A stretch of 9,060 bases of DNA from a virus (lineage: Duplodnaviria > Heunggongvirae > Uroviricota > Caudoviricetes). The position numbers and the translations under genes are program-made. Below, one piece after another: positions 2,624 to 8,492 of this stretch. The number at the start of each line of letters is the position of its first letter. Positions within the stretch are counted from its first letter, which is position 1. Where the stretch lies: positions 1 to 9,060 of IMG/VR virus record IMGVR_UViG_2663763232_000002, one strand, 5' to 3'. The notes under the pieces are model-generated. The model was given only the letters and a program-made list of their open reading frames with translations, ran no database searches and had not been told where the DNA came from.

Positions 2624-2699
2624 TGGTGCCGGTTAACGGATTTGAACCGCTACCTATTCACTTACAAGGCGACCGCTCTACCATTGGAGCTAAACCAGC
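2624..2699 (-). tRNA. tRNA-Thr (anticodon UGU), phage-encoded
   Basis: Hand-folded 76-nt cloverleaf on the minus strand: acceptor GCTGGTT/AACCGGC (one G.U), U8, D-arm GCTC-CAATGGTA-GAGC with G18G19, anticodon loop CU-UGU-AA, T-arm AGCGG-TTCAAAT-CCGTT, discriminator A, encoded CCA. Deviations: C where A14 is expected and a G:A at 27:43. Confidence 0.55.
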
Positions 2700-2704
2700 A
2701 TGTT

Positions 2705-2779
2705 TGGCGGGACAGCGTGGACTCGAACCACGATAAGAAGGTTAACAGCCTTCCGTAATGACCTTTATACGACTGACCC
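2705..2779 (-). tRNA. tRNA-Asn (anticodon GUU), phage-encoded
   Basis: Hand-folded 75-nt cloverleaf on the minus strand: anticodon arm GAAGG-CUGUUAA-CCTTC (same loop as E. coli tRNA-Asn), T-arm CGTGG-TTCGAGT-CCACG, 4-nt variable loop, discriminator G, encoded CCA. The acceptor stem GGGTCAG/CTGTCCC has a U4:U69 mismatch and the D-stem has a 13:22 mismatch. It sits 5 nt upstream of the tRNA-Thr. Confidence 0.6.
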
Positions 2780-2870: not shown

Positions 2871-3359
2871 CTATGCTACATGTTTAATTTTCTCTACACG
2901 TTTCCGGTTTTTAAACGCACTATCCAGAACTGGGTAAATCATAAACAACGAAGCATTGAGGATTTCGTCAACTTCCCGGCGACAGGTTGCGAGCGATGGT
3001 TTTTGAATACGCCCGCCGCCCCGGCATAACATCTTGCGAGGTCTTGCGACACGATGATAGTAAGATGCAATGGCATGCTTGGAAGATCCATGAGCGTAGT
3101 AGCTGAGGAGGATGCCAAAGGCTTTCTTGTCAATGCACATGACGGAATCGACGACCTGAGAAATCAACATTCCATCATCATCATTACACATTGGCCTTGT
3201 CATAACTCTTCCCGGCTCTACGCTCTCCATGAACTTCGCTATTACGCTGCTCATGCGCTTTTCCAGACGACCTGAATAAACCCATGCGCCCCACAGTTCA
3301 AGCCAGCCATTCAGCCAATCGTGCTGTTCTTTGGTGAGGTTTAGTTCTCTTATGCTCAT
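2871..3359 (-). CDS. Q: Late-gene antiterminator Q (Q family of E. coli lambdoid prophages, not lambda-Q type by sequence)
   Basis: The 162-aa product 'WLELWGAWVYSGRLEKR...MTRPMCNDDDGML...SYYAHGSS...RRE' matches, from memory, the Q antiterminators of E. coli lambdoid prophages. Position is canonical, between ninH and the lysis cassette. The ATG overlaps the ninH stop (ATGA, 3356-3359). Confidence 0.75.
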   Translation of the reverse strand: MSIRELNLTKEQHDWLNGWLELWGAWVYSGRLEKRMSSVIAKFMESVEPGRVMTRPMCNDDDGMLISQVVDSVMCIDKKAFGILLSYYAHGSSKHAIASYYHRVARPRKMLCRGGGRIQKPSLATCRREVDEILNASLFMIYPVLDSAFKNRKRVEKIKHVA

Positions 3360-3903: not shown

Positions 3904-4190
3904 GGCTTAATCTTCCCCTCCTTCAGCAGGATCGCCTGCGTCCTGATCACGCCTTCGAGGTGATAAAGTCTGGCGTCTTTGTTGTCGAGGTTATGGGTGC
4001 GTCGGTCGATCTCCGCGTGGCAGTCACTACAAGCCCATGTGCCGATCAGGTCGGCAGGCTTCATTCCCGTTCCGCAAATTCCAGCCATCCGGTAATGCGC
4101 CAGAACTGTAGTTTCAGGATTACCATTGCATATGCCGTAAATACGTACCTGGCATTCTCTGCCGCGCGCTTCTTTGCGTAGGTTAGCCAT
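3900..4190 (-). CDS. ybcO: YbcO-like DUF1364 protein (putative Zn-binding nuclease)
   Basis: 'MANLRKEARGRECQVRIYGICNGNPETTVLAHYRMAGICGTG.KP.DL....ACSDCHAEIDRRTH' closely matches DLP12 YbcO as I recall it, and sits directly upstream of rusA as in DLP12. Confidence 0.8.
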   Translation of the reverse strand: MANLRKEARGRECQVRIYGICNGNPETTVLAHYRMAGICGTGMKPADLIGTWACSDCHAEIDRRTHNLDNKDARLYHLEGVIRTQAILLKEGKIKP

Positions 4191-4459
4191 TATGGTTCAC
4201 TCCAGTAATTCTCAATTGCAGCAGCCATTCTCTGCATCCACTCAGCCAGCTTTAACGCGGCTTCTCTTTCAGAACCACATTTAGGGAAATCCTTCATTTC
4301 CATGCTGGCCTTATATGTTCTGAATGCCAGGTCTCCGGTAATAACCAGCTCCTGATCAAGCACCGAGCGTTTATTCCGGTGTTGAACGTAATAGACAGAT
4401 TCAGTCCGCATTTCTTCTCTGTCTTTTTTGAAGGAAATAAGCTCAGAGAAATCATTCAT
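4190..4459 (-). CDS. Hypothetical nin-region protein (89 aa)
   Basis: Clean ATG at 4459-4457; an 8-nt start/stop overlap with ninF upstream and a 1-nt overlap with the ybcO-like gene downstream show it is embedded in the translationally coupled operon. No recognisable family. It occupies the slot that ninG/rap holds in lambda. Confidence 0.6.
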   Translation of the reverse strand: MNDFSELISFKKDREEMRTESVYYVQHRNKRSVLDQELVITGDLAFRTYKASMEMKDFPKCGSEREAALKLAEWMQRMAAAIENYWSEP

Positions 4460-4801: not shown

Positions 4802-5343
4802 GCCGCCCTCCTGACGCCCTGCCCGATCGCCATCAATGCCACTTTGGATACGGTAGTAAACATCCGTCGAGGACTGATGAACGGTCGCCAAATCAGCAGC
4901 ATGGAGCCTTTGCTGTTTCCCTTTTTCTCCAGCCCTGTCGATGGTTCGATAAAATTAATCCGTCCATCAGTGATAATACGAACTTCGTCAACACTCTCCA
5001 GAGCCTTGCTGAACCATCCGACTGACATATCCTCTGGCACAAGCATCACTACCGTCTGTCGCTGTTGTATGCACTGCTCAGCGGCTTTTTCCACCCACGG
5101 CCTGATATTGCTGTACGGTGGGTTATTCCAGATTGCACCGTGGCTTATCCACTCAGAATTGAGCGCGTTGTCAGCCTCAGTTAGCCAGTGAGCGCACAGA
5201 GCATTTTTGTCGCTCGCTGCCGAATCCAGCCAGAATCCAAACTCAATATCCAGTGCATCAAAAAGCCAGAGCGGCGTTTGCCAGCAGTCCTTGTCGTGTG
5301 CTGGCGTATTTGATTTGATAGTCATGCAGCCCGATCTCCCCAT
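4798..5343 (-). CDS. Phage DNA N6-adenine methyltransferase (Dam-like, orphan)
   Basis: '[28 protein letters not shown].......L...W....[17 protein letters not shown].......Q.VVMLVP' carries the NPPY catalytic motif IV and matches the phage Dam (PF05869-type) pattern. No cognate restriction gene is adjacent. An alternative ATG at 5325 overlaps the HNH stop as ATGA and may be the true start. Confidence 0.85.
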
Positions 5344-5924
5344 CTCGCTTTCATTTTTTCATTTGCAAATCGCCAGAATCTTCCTTTGTGATATGAGCTT
5401 TCGCCATTACAGCAACGACTAATTGACGAACTATCAAATCCTTCTCTGACAGCATCCATAGCTGCTTCATAATAAACCTCCTCCCCAGTTTTCATGTCAG
5501 TAGAAATAACAGCTTTACTGGCAGGATGGTCACCACTAAATTTACCTAGCGATATAGGTATTCTTCCATTTTGTTTATATCCGTGTTTTGAGTTTTCAGA
5601 ATGTGATACCCATTCAAGGTTATCAGCCCTATTGTCATCTCTTCGCCCATTTTTGTGATTAACTACCAAGCCATCACAGAACCCTGTACAGAATGCTTTC
5701 GCAACTATCCTGTGGGCGCTGTATTTCTTACCGTATACCTTTATTTGAAGATATCCTGTCGACTTGCACTTGAATGGTTTTACACTAGTGCCATTAATTA
5801 TTTTCTTATATGGCCTCTGTCTGGTTGATGTTACTGTAACTTCCCTCGTAATAGACCTAAAATTTCCTTTATTGCTAACCTGATAAAATGGAATCCCTTC
5901 GATATCTACCCAAACCTCAATCAT
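5322..5924 (-). CDS. Free-standing HNH homing endonuclease (NUMOD4 + HNH_3-type)
   Basis: N-terminal NUMOD4-like 'EVWVDIEGIPFYQVSNKGNFRSI'; HNH core 'H-KNG-RRD-DN-RAD-NL-EWVSHSE-N-SK-H'; C-terminal 'F.S...AA...G.....IS.CC.G...S..G..WRF', typical of phage HNH endonuclease DNA-binding tails. GGAGG Shine-Dalgarno before the ATG at 5924. The gene body is markedly AT-rich. Confidence 0.85.
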   Translation of the reverse strand: MIEVWVDIEGIPFYQVSNKGNFRSITREVTVTSTRQRPYKKIINGTSVKPFKCKSTGYLQIKVYGKKYSAHRIVAKAFCTGFCDGLVVNHKNGRRDDNRADNLEWVSHSENSKHGYKQNGRIPISLGKFSGDHPASKAVISTDMKTGEEVYYEAAMDAVREGFDSSSISRCCNGESSYHKGRFWRFANEKMKARWGDRAA

Positions 5925-6333
5925 AATTCCTCCATTCGCTAAGATGAATTGAGTTCATGGCACAATATGCTTCTATGTAGTCCATTATTTCGGATATTTT
6001 TTTTACAGATAGAGTCGCCGTACTCTCTCTGATGTTTATTAGCTCACCTTCTAACCCTGATATAATCTCAGGGTGCTGGTTGGTTGCAATCTGCCAACCA
6101 GAAACGAATAACCCCTTCCAAAACTCAATATTTCTTGCTTTTCCATGATATGTAGCCTTCTTACTTATTTCAGATAGCATCGCGTGAAGGCGTGCATTTT
6201 GCCGAATGCTGCGGTTGCGTTCCTGAATGGTTACTACGATTGGTTTGGTTGGGTCTGGAAGGATTTGCTGTACTGCGTGAATAGCGTTTTGCTGATGTGC
6301 TGGAGATCGAATTTCAAAGGTTAGTTTTTTCAT
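5917..6333 (-). CDS. ninB: NinB (Orf-family recombination mediator), mosaic allele
   Basis: The first ~41 residues, 'MKKLTFEIRSPAHQQNAIHAVQQILPDPTKPIVVTIQERNRS', match lambda NinB as I recall it; the remainder is homologous but divergent. GAGGGAAG Shine-Dalgarno before the ATG at 6333. Confidence 0.85.
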   Translation of the reverse strand: MKKLTFEIRSPAHQQNAIHAVQQILPDPTKPIVVTIQERNRSIRQNARLHAMLSEISKKATYHGKARNIEFWKGLFVSGWQIATNQHPEIISGLEGELINIRESTATLSVKKISEIMDYIEAYCAMNSIHLSEWRNYD

Positions 6334-6526
6334 GACTTCCCTCTCTAACAGATTTCAGGTTATTCCACTCCGTTACCGCACTGCGATAATTCGCGGCCGC
6401 CACAGCAGCGTGGTTAGCGCAGTAGATTTCGCACCCGCTCTCCATGTCAAATATTGTCGGTGATTTTCCGCATTTACATTTTTTGGCACGCGGTGCGTCT
6501 GAACACATTCCGTTAACGGTGTCCAT
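6314..6526 (-). CDS. Small Cys-rich hypothetical protein (70 aa, zinc-ribbon-like)
   Basis: Strong Shine-Dalgarno (GAGGGGGA) before the ATG at 6526. Cysteines are arranged C-x8-CxC...C-x3-C. It is the first gene after the terminator, in the position of ren in lambda. No family recognised. Confidence 0.5.
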   Translation of the reverse strand: MDTVNGMCSDAPRAKKCKCGKSPTIFDMESGCEIYCANHAAVAAANYRSAVTEWNNLKSVREGSHEKTNL

Positions 6527-6550
6527 CAGGATCCCCCTCGTTCTTAATCC

Positions 6551-6581
6551 AATAAAAAAGGGCTACTGTGTAAATAGCCCC
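6551..6581 (-). terminator. Intrinsic terminator downstream of the primase-helicase (tR2-like position)
   Basis: Minus strand reads 5'-GGGCTA-TTTACACAG-TAGCCC-TTTTTTATT-3': a 6-bp stem (7 if the flanking G:C is counted), 9-nt loop and 6-T tract, between the replication gene stop (6612) and the first nin-region gene. Confidence 0.6.
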
Positions 6582-6611
6582 TGTTATTAGCTCAGTGATG
6601 TAGATGGTCAT

Positions 6612-8492
6612 TTAATACTCCGTCACGTTTTCCTGTCGCCACGCCTCGTCATATTCCGATTTCGGCATATTGGCGATGTAGCTATAAGGCGATCCTGATT
6701 CAAGTTGCAGGAACTGGTGCGATTGCTCGTCAAGGAACAAAGGGACGCCACCTTCCCAACCTTCGCCGTTACGTTGCTTTTCAAGCATCAAAACAGATGC
6801 CGGAGATGCCAGTAGCTGTTCGTCCTTCTCTGACATCTTTTCACCACTCTGAACTCTCTGTAACGCTCTCTCGCGAGCCTTGTTACGCCAGATGATGAAA
6901 AGGTTGTCTGTCAGGTCTGTTATCGCTCCAGAGCCTTTTACGTCCATTTTCCCGGTTGGTTTTTCTTCGCTGTCACCTTTTCGCGAGTGAGTAACGAGAA
7001 TGACGTGGGAGTTTGTTTTGTTTTTGAAATCGCAAATCGAGTCAACAAACGCCTTCTGCCCGTTATAGTCATCGTCGCCTATGCCACATTTCATTAGGCT
7101 GTCGATGATGAATAACTGGATCCCGTATCGGCGGCGAGCGTAGTCGAATATTTCGATCAGCCTGTCGGCTTTCGCCGTTCCGGTCAGACCAAACACCCAA
7201 AGTCTTTCGTCATAAAATTTAAATGCAGAGTCAATTTCCAGCACTGGCGGCATCTTGCAGCACGTCGCCTGACGGGTAAGGCGCTTAAGGAGAATACCAG
7301 GCTTCAGCTCAAGTGACGCGATGCACGTCTTCACACCCTGACGCATTGCCTCAAGTGCCATATGCCCGACAACCTCCGTTTTTCCGTGACCGTTCACACC
7401 ATTGACCAGCGTCAACTCGGCCTCACGGAACTGGAATTTATCTGCCAGAGATTCCCACGGTGGATTAAACAGATACTGCTGCTTGCCGTAGAAAGCGTTG
7501 ATAGTGTCCTGGTAAAACTCTCGCGCGCTGTAGAGTTCTTCAGGATCGAAGTAGGATGCCGTGCCGATGTACTGCCAGATTTCATCCTCGGTAACACCGT
7601 TCATCAGGCATTCGTTGATGTCTTTGTACGGCAGAGTAACAAGACGGCAACGATGTTCACCGAGTCGGCTTGCGATTTCCCTTGCGGCTTCACGACCAAC
7701 ATCATCAACGTCCATCGAGATGAATATTTCCTCAAACCTGTCGAGGTTGTGATACTCAAACTCAATCCACTGTTGCTTAGCGCCTTTCCCGCCACCAAAC
7801 GGCACGGATAACGCCGAGATGCCGTATTGCGCATAGCTCATACAATCAATTTCGCCTTCGCAAAGTACAACCGCCCTCACGCCAGCGTCCAGAGCCTGCC
7901 ATCCGAACAGACAAGGTTCGCAATCACCTTCTGCCATAATGACTTTCTTCCCGTCCGGGCGCTCAGTGCTGATTCGCTTGACCTGCAACAACTCACCATC
8001 GCGTTTGTACGGAATCACCAGAGCATCCAGTTCTCGCTCTCCATTCCACACCTTGCCGCTGACAACCTCGTAGCGCTTTACGACTTCTGGCGATATGCCA
8101 CGCGATTGCAGGTACTCAAGATGGGATTCTGTTCTGGTAACGTAGCGGGCGATTTTCTTGCGATCAGGTCTGGAGAATTTCTTCTCACGTTTGGCATCGA
8201 AATGGTGATCGTCATCCTTGATACCGAGAAATGCTTTCGCTTCCTGCATAGCCTGATGCAGGTTAATTCCTCGACATGCCATCCACAAATCAAGCATGTC
8301 ACCGCCGTCCCCCTCAGCGAAATCAGCCCATTTTTTCTTGCCGCTAAGGTTGACCTTAAGGCTGTTTCCCTTGTCACCGTTGACGTTACCGGCAACCCAC
8401 TCATGCCCCTCTTTCTTGCCGTTTGGCAACAGGTGCGGAGCCACCCTGTCAACCTGCGCCCAAAGCAGGTCGCTAAGTTCACTTGGCGTCAT
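6612..8492 (-). CDS. Bifunctional DNA primase-helicase, T7 gp4-like (degenerate zinc-binding-like domain, TOPRIM primase, DnaB-family helicase)
   Basis: TOPRIM motifs 'VVLCEGEIDCMS' and 'ISMDVDDVGREAA', and 'LPYKDINECLMNG' (T7 gp4 has 'LPCKDANECHLNG'). Helicase Walker A 'NGVNGHGKT', Walker B 'LFIIDSL', and 'VKGSGAITDLTDNLFIIWRN' (T7 has '[20 protein letters not shown]'). GAGGGA Shine-Dalgarno before the ATG at 8492. Confidence 0.9.
   Translation of the reverse strand: MTPSELSDLLWAQVDRVAPHLLPNGKKEGHEWVAGNVNGDKGNSLKVNLSGKKKWADFAEGDGGDMLDLWMACRGINLHQAMQEAKAFLGIKDDDHHFDAKREKKFSRPDRKKIARYVTRTESHLEYLQSRGISPEVVKRYEVVSGKVWNGERELDALVIPYKRDGELLQVKRISTERPDGKKVIMAEGDCEPCLFGWQALDAGVRAVVLCEGEIDCMSYAQYGISALSVPFGGGKGAKQQWIEFEYHNLDRFEEIFISMDVDDVGREAAREIASRLGEHRCRLVTLPYKDINECLMNGVTEDEIWQYIGTASYFDPEELYSAREFYQDTINAFYGKQQYLFNPPWESLADKFQFREAELTLVNGVNGHGKTEVVGHMALEAMRQGVKTCIASLELKPGILLKRLTRQATCCKMPPVLEIDSAFKFYDERLWVFGLTGTAKADRLIEIFDYARRRYGIQLFIIDSLMKCGIGDDDYNGQKAFVDSICDFKNKTNSHVILVTHSRKGDSEEKPTGKMDVKGSGAITDLTDNLFIIWRNKARERALQRVQSGEKMSEKDEQLLASPASVLMLEKQRNGEGWEGGVPLFLDEQSHQFLQLESGSPYSYIANMPKSEYDEAWRQENVTEY

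What the first reader, a model, noticed from the sequence alone, without database searches (positions are those of the whole stretch)
6314..6526. Cys-rich 70-aa protein at the head of the nin operon
It is the first ORF after the tR2-like terminator and has a strong Shine-Dalgarno. The cysteine pattern C-x8-CxC-x12-C-x3-C suggests a small zinc-ribbon protein. It replaces ren of lambda, a gene involved in resistance to Rex exclusion, so an exclusion or anti-exclusion role is possible.
Basis: inference. Interest (0 to 1): 0.4.

Follow-up and report, generated by a model that had tools for sequence, protein, structure and literature searches.

The report
Small zinc-binding phage gene before ninB
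This is a real, conserved 70-residue cysteine-rich phage gene (HK97 gp60, function unknown) lying between the tR2 terminator and ninB, in a swap-slot that related phages usually fill with Lar anti-restriction genes; it is probably a very diverged Lar relative, and it does not replace ren.

Summary
The ORF exists as described, but on the minus strand (6526→6314). It is HK97 gp60 / phrog_6308, which has no assigned function. It is a real gene. Against 70–77%-identical DNA homologues, synonymous sites are saturated while dN is 0.07–0.18. All five Cys, His39 and Trp54-Asn55 are kept, with synonymous codon switching.

It does not replace ren. Compared with lambda/434 it is a 234-bp insertion, made of a variant tR2 hairpin, an SD and the ORF, between tR2 and the ninB ribosome-binding site. 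Ren lies upstream of tR2.

The position just before ninB is a cassette-exchange slot. In at least 119 phage records it holds a bona fide Lar (restriction alleviation, PF14354) gene. gp60-type cassettes share both their left linker and their right ninB junction with Lar cassettes.

gp60 aligns colinearly with Lar (KxC(P)xCG … CxxC/H … AxxxWN). Statistical support is marginal: hhalign P≈0.003, empirical p≈0.02–0.04, no Pfam hit. AlphaFold reaches good confidence only when Lar sequences are in the alignment.

Best reading (about 45%): a degenerate Lar-type zinc protein made early to blunt type I restriction. Interest is modest.

The parts
6314..6526 (-). 70-aa Cys-rich ORF (HK97 gp60 / phrog_6308 family)
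   Evidence: ORF list and sequence; phrog_6308 E 2e-52; HK97 gp60; purifying selection.
6532..6539 (-). Shine-Dalgarno GAGGGGGA, 5 nt before the ATG
   Evidence: Read directly from the sequence. A G5-to-G4 length variant of this run fuses the upstream 32-codon ORF to this ORF in some E. coli records (P0002).
6551..6582 (-). Intrinsic-terminator-like hairpin plus T-run: a variant tR2
   Evidence: Terminator scan; fold z -2.3; same flanks and position as the lambda/434 tR2 hairpin, which is annotated as a terminator in 434.
6513..6611 (-). 32-codon orf26/ninA-like ORF that contains the terminator and overlaps the start of the 70-aa ORF by 14 nt
   Evidence: annotated as Gp56 in HK97 and ninA in CUS-3. 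Whether it is translated was not established.
6346..6579 (-). 234-bp cassette (variant hairpin + SD + ORF) present here and in HK97 in place of about 31 bp in lambda-type phages (434, Sf101)
   Evidence: DNA alignment A5: homology is lost after AACAGG and resumes at GAGAGGGAAGTCATG.
6467..6478 (-). First putative zinc knuckle C17-K-C19-G20
   Evidence: Invariant in the family; aligns with Lar CPFCG in hhalign and in unguided MAFFT.
6410..6421 (-). Second putative zinc knuckle C36-A-N-H39
   Evidence: C36 and H39 are invariant. C36 is in the column of the third Lar Cys and H39 in that of the fourth. H39 switches codon CAC/CAT among homologues.
6362..6379 (-). C-terminal helix motif A50-V-T-E-W54-N55
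   Evidence: Aligns with the Lar A-[IL]-x-x-W-N motif; helix 47-56/62 in both AlphaFold models.
6314..6333 (-). 20-nt overlap with ninB; the ninB SD GAGAGGGAA (6345-6337) lies inside the ORF
   Evidence: The same 20-nt overlap geometry occurs in L014 and in a bona fide Lar cassette (L040) on the same ninB allele.
5917..6333 (-). ninB (Orf-family recombination mediator), right-hand neighbour in every homologue examined
   Evidence: PF05772 E 1e-40; context of L013, L014, L015, HK97, CUS-3 and L018.

Best explanation
The ORF encodes a small cytoplasmic zinc-binding protein (HK97 gp60 family). It is most likely a strongly diverged member of the Lar/RalR lineage, kept in the exchangeable accessory slot immediately upstream of ninB. 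Expression (inferred): delayed-early transcription from pR reads through the variant tR2 hairpin when N-type antitermination is active. The ORF is translated from its own SD, and its last 20 nt overlap ninB, so the two are probably translationally coupled. Structure (inferred): C17 and C19 (a CxC knuckle in place of Lar's CPxC) together with C36 and H39 (CxxH in place of CxxC) bind one Zn2+ across a beta-hairpin. A third strand and a C-terminal helix carrying the invariant A50...W54-N55 complete the Lar-type domain. C8 and C32 are extra conserved cysteines of unknown role. Function (inferred by analogy and slot equivalence only): like Lar and Ral, it would act early in infection to alleviate type I (EcoKI-family) restriction and/or enhance modification of unmodified phage DNA.
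For: Real gene under purifying selection with residue-level conservation of the proposed ligands. Profile-profile alignment to Lar is colinear over 49-51 columns and joins all three Lar motifs: hhalign P 0.0056, 0.0029 and 0.0031 with 11-, 30- and 37-sequence Lar profiles. Column-shuffle nulls reached the observed score in 9/400 and 6/150 trials. Unguided MAFFT of 6 gp60 and 22 Lar proteins gives the same register: C17, C19, C36 and W54 invariant in all 28; K15, G20, A50 and N55 nearly invariant; H39 in the fourth-Cys column. The gp60 profile scores real Lar sequences (mean 14.6) above their shuffles (10.2) and above seven Cys-rich or small decoys (8.5-12.4). AlphaFold without any Lar input predicts the order beta24-28, beta31-35, beta42-44, alpha47-62. 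With Lar rows added, core pLDDT rises to 81-88 with the same element order, and the only high-probability BFVD hits are Lar proteins. Context: a bona fide Lar gene overlapping ninB occupies this slot in 119 phage records, annotated 'lar' in phi24B. A 34-bp left linker (stop + SD + ATG-Ser-Asp) is 30/34 identical between Stx-phage lar and the gp60-type genes of L013-L015. A Pfam-positive Lar cassette (32 bits) abuts the same ninB allele with the same 20-nt overlap as in the window. Lar proteins found behind that linker show a graded divergence (54 down to 19 bits) and variable second knuckles: CxxC, C-x6-C, H-x3-C, H-x-C.
Against: No Pfam, NCBIfam or PADLOC hit for any family member even at E<=10. 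BLASTP to RalR and to the Stx-phage Lar is not significant (E 8.4 and 0.21). hhalign probability is only 6-11%. A Lar-only HMM gives 3-8.5 bits: empirical p is 0.06 for the window protein and 0.0025 for P0017, and among window ORFs this one ranks only third. A profile of slot-resident Lar proteins alone does not single it out (15/150 shuffles). The Lar-free AlphaFold model has low confidence (pLDDT 50) and finds nothing. The confident model and its Lar hits depend on Lar rows in the alignment. The first knuckle is one residue short, and the Pro and the Arg of WNxR are missing. The slot also holds unrelated cassettes (a 60-aa protein, a 66-aa protein, ST64T orf-98, a non-Lar 61-aa zinc ribbon), so position alone does not prove homology. 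Lar's own mechanism is unknown, and RalR has been re-described as a DNase toxin (PMC3177214, PMC4041452).
Confidence: 0.45

Rival explanations
1. It is a small zinc-binding accessory protein that is not derived from Lar. It is another independent cassette of the pre-ninB slot, with a different target: another defence system, or a partner or regulator of NinB or replication.
For: No database profile recognises it. The Lar signal is marginal. The slot demonstrably holds unrelated cassettes, including a non-Lar CxxC...CxxC protein. In every homologue the gene overlaps ninB.
Against: The three-motif colinear match to Lar, found by two alignment methods, exceeds composition-matched nulls and decoys. 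Overlap with ninB is a property of the slot rather than of this gene, because Lar, orf-98 and others overlap ninB too.
Confidence: 0.35
2. It works like RalR as described in 2014: a small DNase-type toxin, possibly kept in check by an antisense RNA, rather than an anti-restriction factor.
For: RalR is the founding Lar protein and was reported to be a non-specific DNase toxin paired with the sRNA RalA (PMC4041452). The Rac annotation shows ralA antisense to the neighbouring gene.
Against: No antisense promoter or terminator was detected across the ORF. In 5800-7000 the scan found two promoter-like sites where shuffles give 1.8, neither within or reading across the ORF, and the only terminator-like site is the upstream tR2-type hairpin, which lies on the sense strand. 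The gene is embedded in a lytic early operon and overlaps ninB, which is an odd place for a toxin. It is carried intact by 146 complete E. coli genomes. The Lar relationship itself is uncertain.
Confidence: 0.08
3. One reading: a functional replacement of lambda Ren, acting in resistance to Rex-type exclusion.
For: Only that it lies between the replication genes and ninB, the general neighbourhood where ren is found.
Against: It occupies a different slot: ren lies upstream of orf26/tR2, while this ORF lies downstream. There is no similarity to Ren. Ren is not Cys-rich (general knowledge). HK97-type phages with this gene have various replication modules, and nothing links it to rex.
Confidence: 0.03
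4. It is not a functional gene: a chance ORF in the spacer between the terminator and ninB.
For: PGAP leaves it unannotated in the RefSeq E. coli genomes sampled. It is short.
Against: Saturated synonymous divergence with dN 0.07-0.18. Synonymous switching at conserved Cys/His codons. Own SD. Full-length PHROG family.
Confidence: 0.01

Closest known systems
Lar / RalR of the Rac prophage and the Lar family (Pfam PF14354, Lar_restr_allev)
   Same: Size (64 vs 70 aa). The order of features is the same: basic residue + Cys knuckle + Gly, beta-hairpin, second metal knuckle, short strand, helix with A-x3-W-N. The alignment is colinear. It is phage/prophage encoded and made from an early operon next to recombination genes: ralR lies next to recT, this gene next to ninB.
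   Different: No significant sequence score. The first knuckle is CxC, not CPxC. The second is CxxH, not CxxC. The Arg of WNxR is absent. There are two extra invariant Cys (C8, C32) and an 8-residue longer N-terminus.
Lar-like genes at the head of the nin region of Stx and other lambdoid phages (933W/VT2-Sakai/1717 type; 'lar' of phi24B)
   Same: Identical genomic slot: immediately upstream of and overlapping ninB. The left linker AAGTGAAGGAGTGAGYATGAGCGAY and the M-S-D start are shared with the divergent gp60-type genes. The right junction on the lambda-type ninB allele is shared.
   Different: Those proteins pass the Pfam Lar threshold. The HK97-type cassette additionally brings its own tR2-variant hairpin and a different SD.
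HK97 gp60 (AAF31135.1 / NP_037742.1), phrog_6308
   Same: Same gene: 97% protein identity, same flanks.
   Different: Two substitutions (S30N, E33Q). In the window it follows a primase/helicase-type replication module rather than a DnaB-type P gene.
Lambda Ral
   Same: A small, Cys-containing early phage protein that alleviates type I restriction and enhances modification (PMC3177214; bioRxiv 10.1101/2023.04.06.535777).
   Different: No detectable similarity (hhalign P 0.11 over 9 columns). Ral is encoded in the pL operon, not the nin region.
Lambda/434 Ren
   Same: Lies between the replication genes and ninB.
   Different: Different slot (upstream of tR2) and no similarity.

Membership tests
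HK97 gp60 family (phrog_6308) | Full-length profile match | tested here: met
   E 2.2e-52, residues 1-70 on profile 1-70 of 70; 97% identical to HK97 gp60.
Lar family (Pfam PF14354) | Score at or above the Pfam gathering threshold (28.6 bits) | tested here: not met
   No hit at E<=1 for the window protein, and none at E<=10 for P0005, P0008 or P0017. My own Lar-only HMM gives 3.2-8.5 bits.
Lar family (Pfam PF14354) | N-terminal knuckle K-x-C-P-x-C-G | tested here: inconclusive
   K15-K-C17-K-C19-G20: K, both Cys and Gly align, but the knuckle is one residue shorter and lacks Pro.
Lar family (Pfam PF14354) | Second knuckle C-x2-C about 17-18 residues after the first | tested here: inconclusive
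   C36-x2-H39 lies 17 residues after C19, and H39 is in the fourth-Cys column. Bona fide members already vary here: CxC, C-x6-C, H-x3-C, H-x-C.
Lar family (Pfam PF14354) | C-terminal helix motif A-[IL]-x-x-W-N-x-R | tested here: inconclusive
   A50-V-T-E-W54-N55-N-L: A, W and N are present and invariant, Arg is absent. One sub-threshold slot Lar variant also lacks it (AWNEM).
Lar family (Pfam PF14354) | Statistically significant profile-profile relationship | tested here: inconclusive
   hhalign P 0.003-0.006, probability 6-11%; empirical 9/400 and 6/150.
Lar family (Pfam PF14354) | Same three-dimensional fold | tested here: inconclusive
   The Lar-free model has pLDDT 50 and gives no hits. 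The joint-alignment model has pLDDT 75 and Lar hits at Foldseek probability 0.97-1.0, but is not independent. No Lar structure is solved.
Lar family (Pfam PF14354) | Alleviates type I restriction / enhances modification | not testable with these tools
   Needs efficiency-of-plating assays.
Lar cassettes of the lambdoid pre-ninB slot | Located immediately upstream of and overlapping ninB, between the shared linker and the ninB start | tested here: met
Ren (lambda Rex-resistance protein) | Sequence similarity to Ren | tested here: not met
   No alignment with E<=100 to 434 Ren.
Ren (lambda Rex-resistance protein) | Position between P and orf26/tR2 | tested here: not met
   The ORF lies downstream of the tR2 equivalent; the ren position is empty in the window.
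Ral (lambda) | Sequence similarity to Ral | tested here: not met
   hhalign P 0.11 over 9 columns.
Zinc-ribbon-like metal-binding domains in general | Two metal knuckles flanking a beta-hairpin; binds Zn | tested here: inconclusive

The most novel reading that the evidence does not exclude
The position immediately upstream of ninB is a dedicated, fast-swapping counter-defence slot of lambdoid phages. It is bounded by a conserved about 25-34-bp linker on the left and the ninB ribosome-binding site on the right. It is populated mostly by Lar variants whose second metal knuckle is being remodelled. The gp60 family would then be the extreme end of that series: a Lar-derived protein with a rewired CxC/CxxH zinc site and two extra cysteines, which may have shifted its specificity to other type I R-M families or to a different defence system. 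The unrelated cassettes in the slot (60-aa, 66-aa, orf-98, 61-aa zinc ribbon) would be further untested anti-defence candidates.
Probability: 0.3. Interest if true: 0.55.

Novelty: new variant of a known kind. Interest (0 to 1): 0.35.

Why it matters
The mechanisms of Lar and Ral are still unknown, although such functions are thought to be needed by many mobile elements that meet type I restriction (PMC3177214). A naturally rewired Lar relative, together with a slot that displays a graded series of Lar variants, would give a ready-made comparative set for finding which residues matter. In practical terms, the gene is present in about 2.7% of complete E. coli genomes and in model phage HK97. 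It is left unannotated by PGAP in the sampled cases and has no name in any family database, so a simple plating assay could assign a function to it. If the Lar link is wrong, it remains an ordinary small phage accessory gene of unknown function.

Tried and rejected
(1) Pfam, NCBIfam, PADLOC and a PDB sequence search with the protein gave no hits.

(2) The exhaustive phmmer search found about nine real relatives. The long multi-stretch hits (P0018-P0023) are Ala/Gly-rich repeat proteins, so they are compositional artefacts.

(3) A fold search with the Lar-free model (pLDDT 50) was meaningless, with no E<=0.001. The afdb50 library was unavailable.

(5) The Ren and Ral comparisons were negative.

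(6) I tested the idea that neighbourhood with 'Phage_phiTE_015' genes links gp60 to Lar. That family is widespread in P22-like phages without Lar or gp60; for example, in ST64T it is followed by the unrelated orf-98. I dropped it as evidence.

(7) Adding slot-resident Lar variants to the profile did not raise the score, and the slot-only profile was not discriminating.

(8) I looked for co-occurrence with the Dam-like methyltransferase. It is not consistent, because CUS-3 and L014 lack it.

(9) Literature searches for HK97 gp60 found nothing relevant, and the accessory-gene screen preprint does not mention this slot.

Full report
**1. What is there**

The window is a lambdoid early-right/nin/lysis region read backwards, with every gene on the minus strand. 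In order:
- O-like fragment (8974-8600).
- 626-aa Toprim + DnaB-like primase/helicase (8492-6612).
- The finding.
- NinB (6333-5917).
- An HNH/NUMOD4 endonuclease (5924-5322).
- A Dam-family methylase (5343-4798).
- NinE, NinF, YbcO, RusA, NinH and Q.
- tRNA-Asn (2779-2705) and tRNA-Thr (2699-2624).
- Holin, lysozyme, Rz and a Rha-like gene.

The finding's ORF runs 6526→6314 on the minus strand and encodes MDTVNGMCSDAPRAKKCKCGKSPTIFDMESGCEIYCANHAAVAAANYRSAVTEWNNLKSVREGSHEKTNL. The stated pattern C-x8-CxC-x12-C-x3-C is correct, and an invariant His39 follows C36 by two residues. GAGGGGGA (6539-6532) lies 5 nt before the ATG. A hairpin plus T-run (6582-6551) lies upstream. The last 20 nt overlap ninB, whose SD (6345-6337) is inside the ORF.

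**2. It is a real gene**

It matches phrog_6308 ('unknown function') end to end at E 2e-52. It is 97% identical to HK97 gp60, an unnamed protein.

The family is very narrow. An exhaustive phmmer scan of 1.84 billion cluster representatives found about nine true relatives, all enterobacterial. The rest were repeat-protein artefacts. Only 15 phage records carry it.

DNA of three divergent homologues (L013, L014, L015) is 70-76% identical to the window copy. Against them, synonymous sites are saturated (Sd 36-43 of S about 43) while dN is 0.07-0.18. Among those three, dN/dS is 0.15-0.30. C17, C32, H39, G20, A50 and N55 use different synonymous codons in different homologues.

All five Cys, H39, W54 and N55 are invariant in seven intact proteins, down to 53% identity.

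The full ORF is in 146 of 5,426 complete E. coli genomes. In the sampled cases PGAP does not annotate it, including a 100%-identical copy.

**3. Anatomy relative to lambda, and the ren claim**

I aligned the window and HK97 with Sf101 and 434. All four share ATGACCATCTACATCACTGAGCTAATAACAGG, which is the start of orf26/ninA.

Lambda-type phages then have the tR2 hairpin CCTGCTGGTAATCGCAGGCC-TTTTTATTTGG and go straight into GAGAGGGAAGTCATG (the ninB SD and start). The window and HK97 instead have a different hairpin at the same place (GGGCTATTTACACAGTAGCCC-TTTTTTATTGG). This is followed by the SD and the 213-bp ORF, and homology resumes at GAGAGGGAAGTCATG.

The ORF is therefore part of a 234-bp cassette inserted between tR2 and ninB.

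In 434, ren (214-504 of L017) lies upstream of orf26 and of the annotated terminator (531-561). So this ORF does not occupy the ren slot. In the window the ren slot is empty: TAA 6614-6612 is followed directly by ATG 6611. There is also no similarity to Ren.

**4. The slot**

Every homologue examined sits immediately upstream of and overlapping ninB, across three different ninB alleles.

Searching phages with Rac RalR/Lar showed that Stx phages carry a bona fide Lar gene in exactly this place. A search with that 78-aa protein found it in 119 records, always next to ninB, and annotated 'lar' in phi24B.

The sequence just upstream of the gp60-type genes in L013-L015 is CTGGAATCAAAGTGAAGGAGTGAGTATGAGCGAT. 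It is 30/34 identical to the sequence upstream of lar in phage 1717. It contains the upstream stop codon, the SD, the ATG and the Ser-Asp codons, and the sequences diverge on both sides of it.

The ORFs that follow it are:
- The common Stx-phage Lar.
- Seven other Lar-like sequences.
- A few unrelated cassettes: a 60-aa protein, a 66-aa protein, a 61-aa CxxC...CxxC protein and others.

Six of the seven Lar-like variants pass the Pfam Lar threshold at 30-54 bits. The seventh has a degenerate second knuckle and AWNEM, and scores 18.9 bits. Their second knuckles vary: CxxC, C-x6-C, H-x3-C and H-x-C.

One Pfam-positive variant (L040) abuts the same lambda-type ninB allele as the window ORF with the same 20-nt overlap...GATGAAAAAACTAACGTTTGA against ...CATGAAAAAACTAACCTTTGA.

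ST64T has an unrelated orf-98 in the slot. It ends in the same ASQRSNQK as the Stx-phage Lar because both run into the same ninB allele.

So this is a cassette-exchange slot. Lar dominates it, and gp60-type cassettes share both of its junctions with Lar cassettes.

**5. Is the protein itself Lar-like?**

I formed this hypothesis from the sequence, before seeing the context. RalR reads K-P-C-P-F-C-G ... C-N-G-C ... E-A-L-E-R-W-N-K-R.

*Direct tests.* BLASTP is not significant. Pfam does not see it.

*Profile-profile tests.* hhalign gives one colinear alignment of 49-51 columns that joins all three motifs:
- P 0.0056 against 11 Lar sequences.
- P 0.0029 against 30 non-redundant sequences.
- P 0.0031 against 37 sequences.
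- The probability is only 6-11% in each case.

*Empirical nulls.* Column shuffles of the gp60 alignment reached the observed score in 9/400 and 6/150 trials.

*Lar-only HMM.* It scores the seven proteins at 3.2-8.5 bits. The shuffle p is 0.06 for the window protein and 0.0025 for P0017. gp60 is the best Lar-HMM hit among all HK97 ORFs, but only at E 0.22. The window copy ranks third among the window's ORFs.

*Unguided MAFFT.* A joint alignment reproduces the hhalign register. C17, C19, C36 and W54 are invariant over 28 sequences, and H39 falls in the fourth-Cys column.

*Specificity.* The gp60 profile scores real Lar sequences at a mean of 14.6. Shuffled Lar sequences score 10.2, and NinF, YbcO, YdaE, Ral, NinH, NinE and orf89 score 8.5-12.4. 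Much of that signal comes from the first knuckle.

*Structure.*
- Lar-free alignment: pLDDT 50, with strands 24-28, 31-35 and 42-44 followed by helix 47-62. Foldseek then finds nothing.
- With 22 Lar rows added: the core reaches pLDDT 81-88 (mean 75, pTM 0.61) with the same element order. The only high-probability BFVD hits are Lar proteins. This shows compatibility and is not independent evidence.

**6. Verdict on mechanism**

Shown:
- It is a genuine, selected, early-operon gene.
- The Cys/His pattern is conserved.
- It is an insertion after tR2.
- It lies in the Lar slot and shares both junctions with Lar cassettes.

Inferred:
- It binds zinc through C17/C19/C36/H39.
- It has a Lar-type fold and descent (about 50%).
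- It alleviates restriction (about 35%, by analogy).

Lar and Ral are thought to enhance de novo methylation by EcoKI, by an unknown mechanism (PMC3177214). RalR has also been described as a DNase toxin (PMC4041452).

The main rival is an unrelated small zinc protein that merely shares the slot.

**7. Novelty and score**

The ORF is already in databases as a hypothetical protein (HK97 gp60). What is new here:
- The corrected anatomy: it is not a ren replacement.
- The recognition of the pre-ninB exchange slot and its linker.
- The proposal that gp60 is a rewired Lar variant.

Interest is modest at 0.35. The result would be useful to people working on anti-restriction, and it is readily testable, but it is not surprising in kind.

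Noticed in passing
window 6513-6611 (-): A 32-codon orf26/ninA-like ORF (MTIYITELITGAIYTVALFYWIKNEGDPDGHR) contains the whole tR2-type hairpin. Lambda-type phages have a 26-codon version with a different hairpin but a similarly hydrophobic peptide (…GLLVIAGLFIW…). Much of that similarity is forced by the GC stem and T-run, so it is unclear whether the peptide is real.
   Followed up: partly
window 6532-6539 (-); protein P0002: In some E. coli records the G5 run of the SD is G4. This puts the 32-codon ORF in frame with the 70-aa ORF and yields an annotated 98-aa 'hypothetical protein' (20 member sequences). This may be why the gene is annotated in some genomes and not in others.
   Followed up: partly
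L018 (NZ_AP042564.1) 2920-3193; hits H106-H108: PGAP leaves the 274-bp gap holding a 100%-identical copy of the ORF unannotated. The two other full-length E. coli hits sampled also show only NinB under the match.
   Followed up: partly
loci L023-L142 (linker AAGTGAAGGAGTGAGYATGAGCGA): The linker precedes many alternative cassettes before ninB: several Lar variants with remodelled second knuckles, a 60-aa protein (MSEQIFREIKPRFYRK…, 24 loci), a 66-aa protein (MSEKTVTLTRRQFRH…), a 61-aa CxxC…CxxC protein, a small membrane peptide and others. None of the non-Lar ones has a Pfam family.
   Followed up: partly
L084 (slot variant MSELKPCIFCGSG…AWNEMMKHDKTNFSASQRSNQK): A degenerate Lar that falls below the Pfam threshold (18.9 bits). 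Its second knuckle is reduced to H-W-C and it has no Arg after WN, making it an intermediate between canonical Lar and undetectable forms.
   Followed up: partly
window 5322-5924 (-): A 200-aa NUMOD4 + HNH_3 (+ I-HmuI-like NUMOD) homing-type endonuclease sits between ninB and the Dam-family methylase and overlaps both. HK97, 434 and Sf101 go directly from ninB to the methylase, so it looks like a mobile insertion.
   Followed up: no
window 2624-2779 (-): Two tRNA genes, Asn(GTT) and Thr(TGT) in order of transcription, lie between the Q antiterminator gene and the holin gene.
   Followed up: no
window 6612-8492 (-): The replication module is a single 626-aa Toprim + DnaB-like primase/helicase (as in mEp043/Sf101), not lambda P or the HK97 DnaB-type helicase. 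The same gp60 cassette is therefore found behind at least two different replication modules.
   Followed up: partly
window 4190-4459 (-): An 89-aa ORF between NinF and YbcO has no Pfam family. It scored slightly higher than the finding's ORF against my Lar HMM (5.0 bits, noise level) through an …EREAALKLAEWMQR… helix.
   Followed up: no
L021 (ST64T) 1764-2060: orf-98 in the pre-ninB slot of ST64T is a hydrophobic, Trp-rich 98-aa protein with no family. Its C-terminus (ASQRSNQK) is identical to that of the Stx-phage Lar because both read into the same ninB allele.
   Followed up: partly
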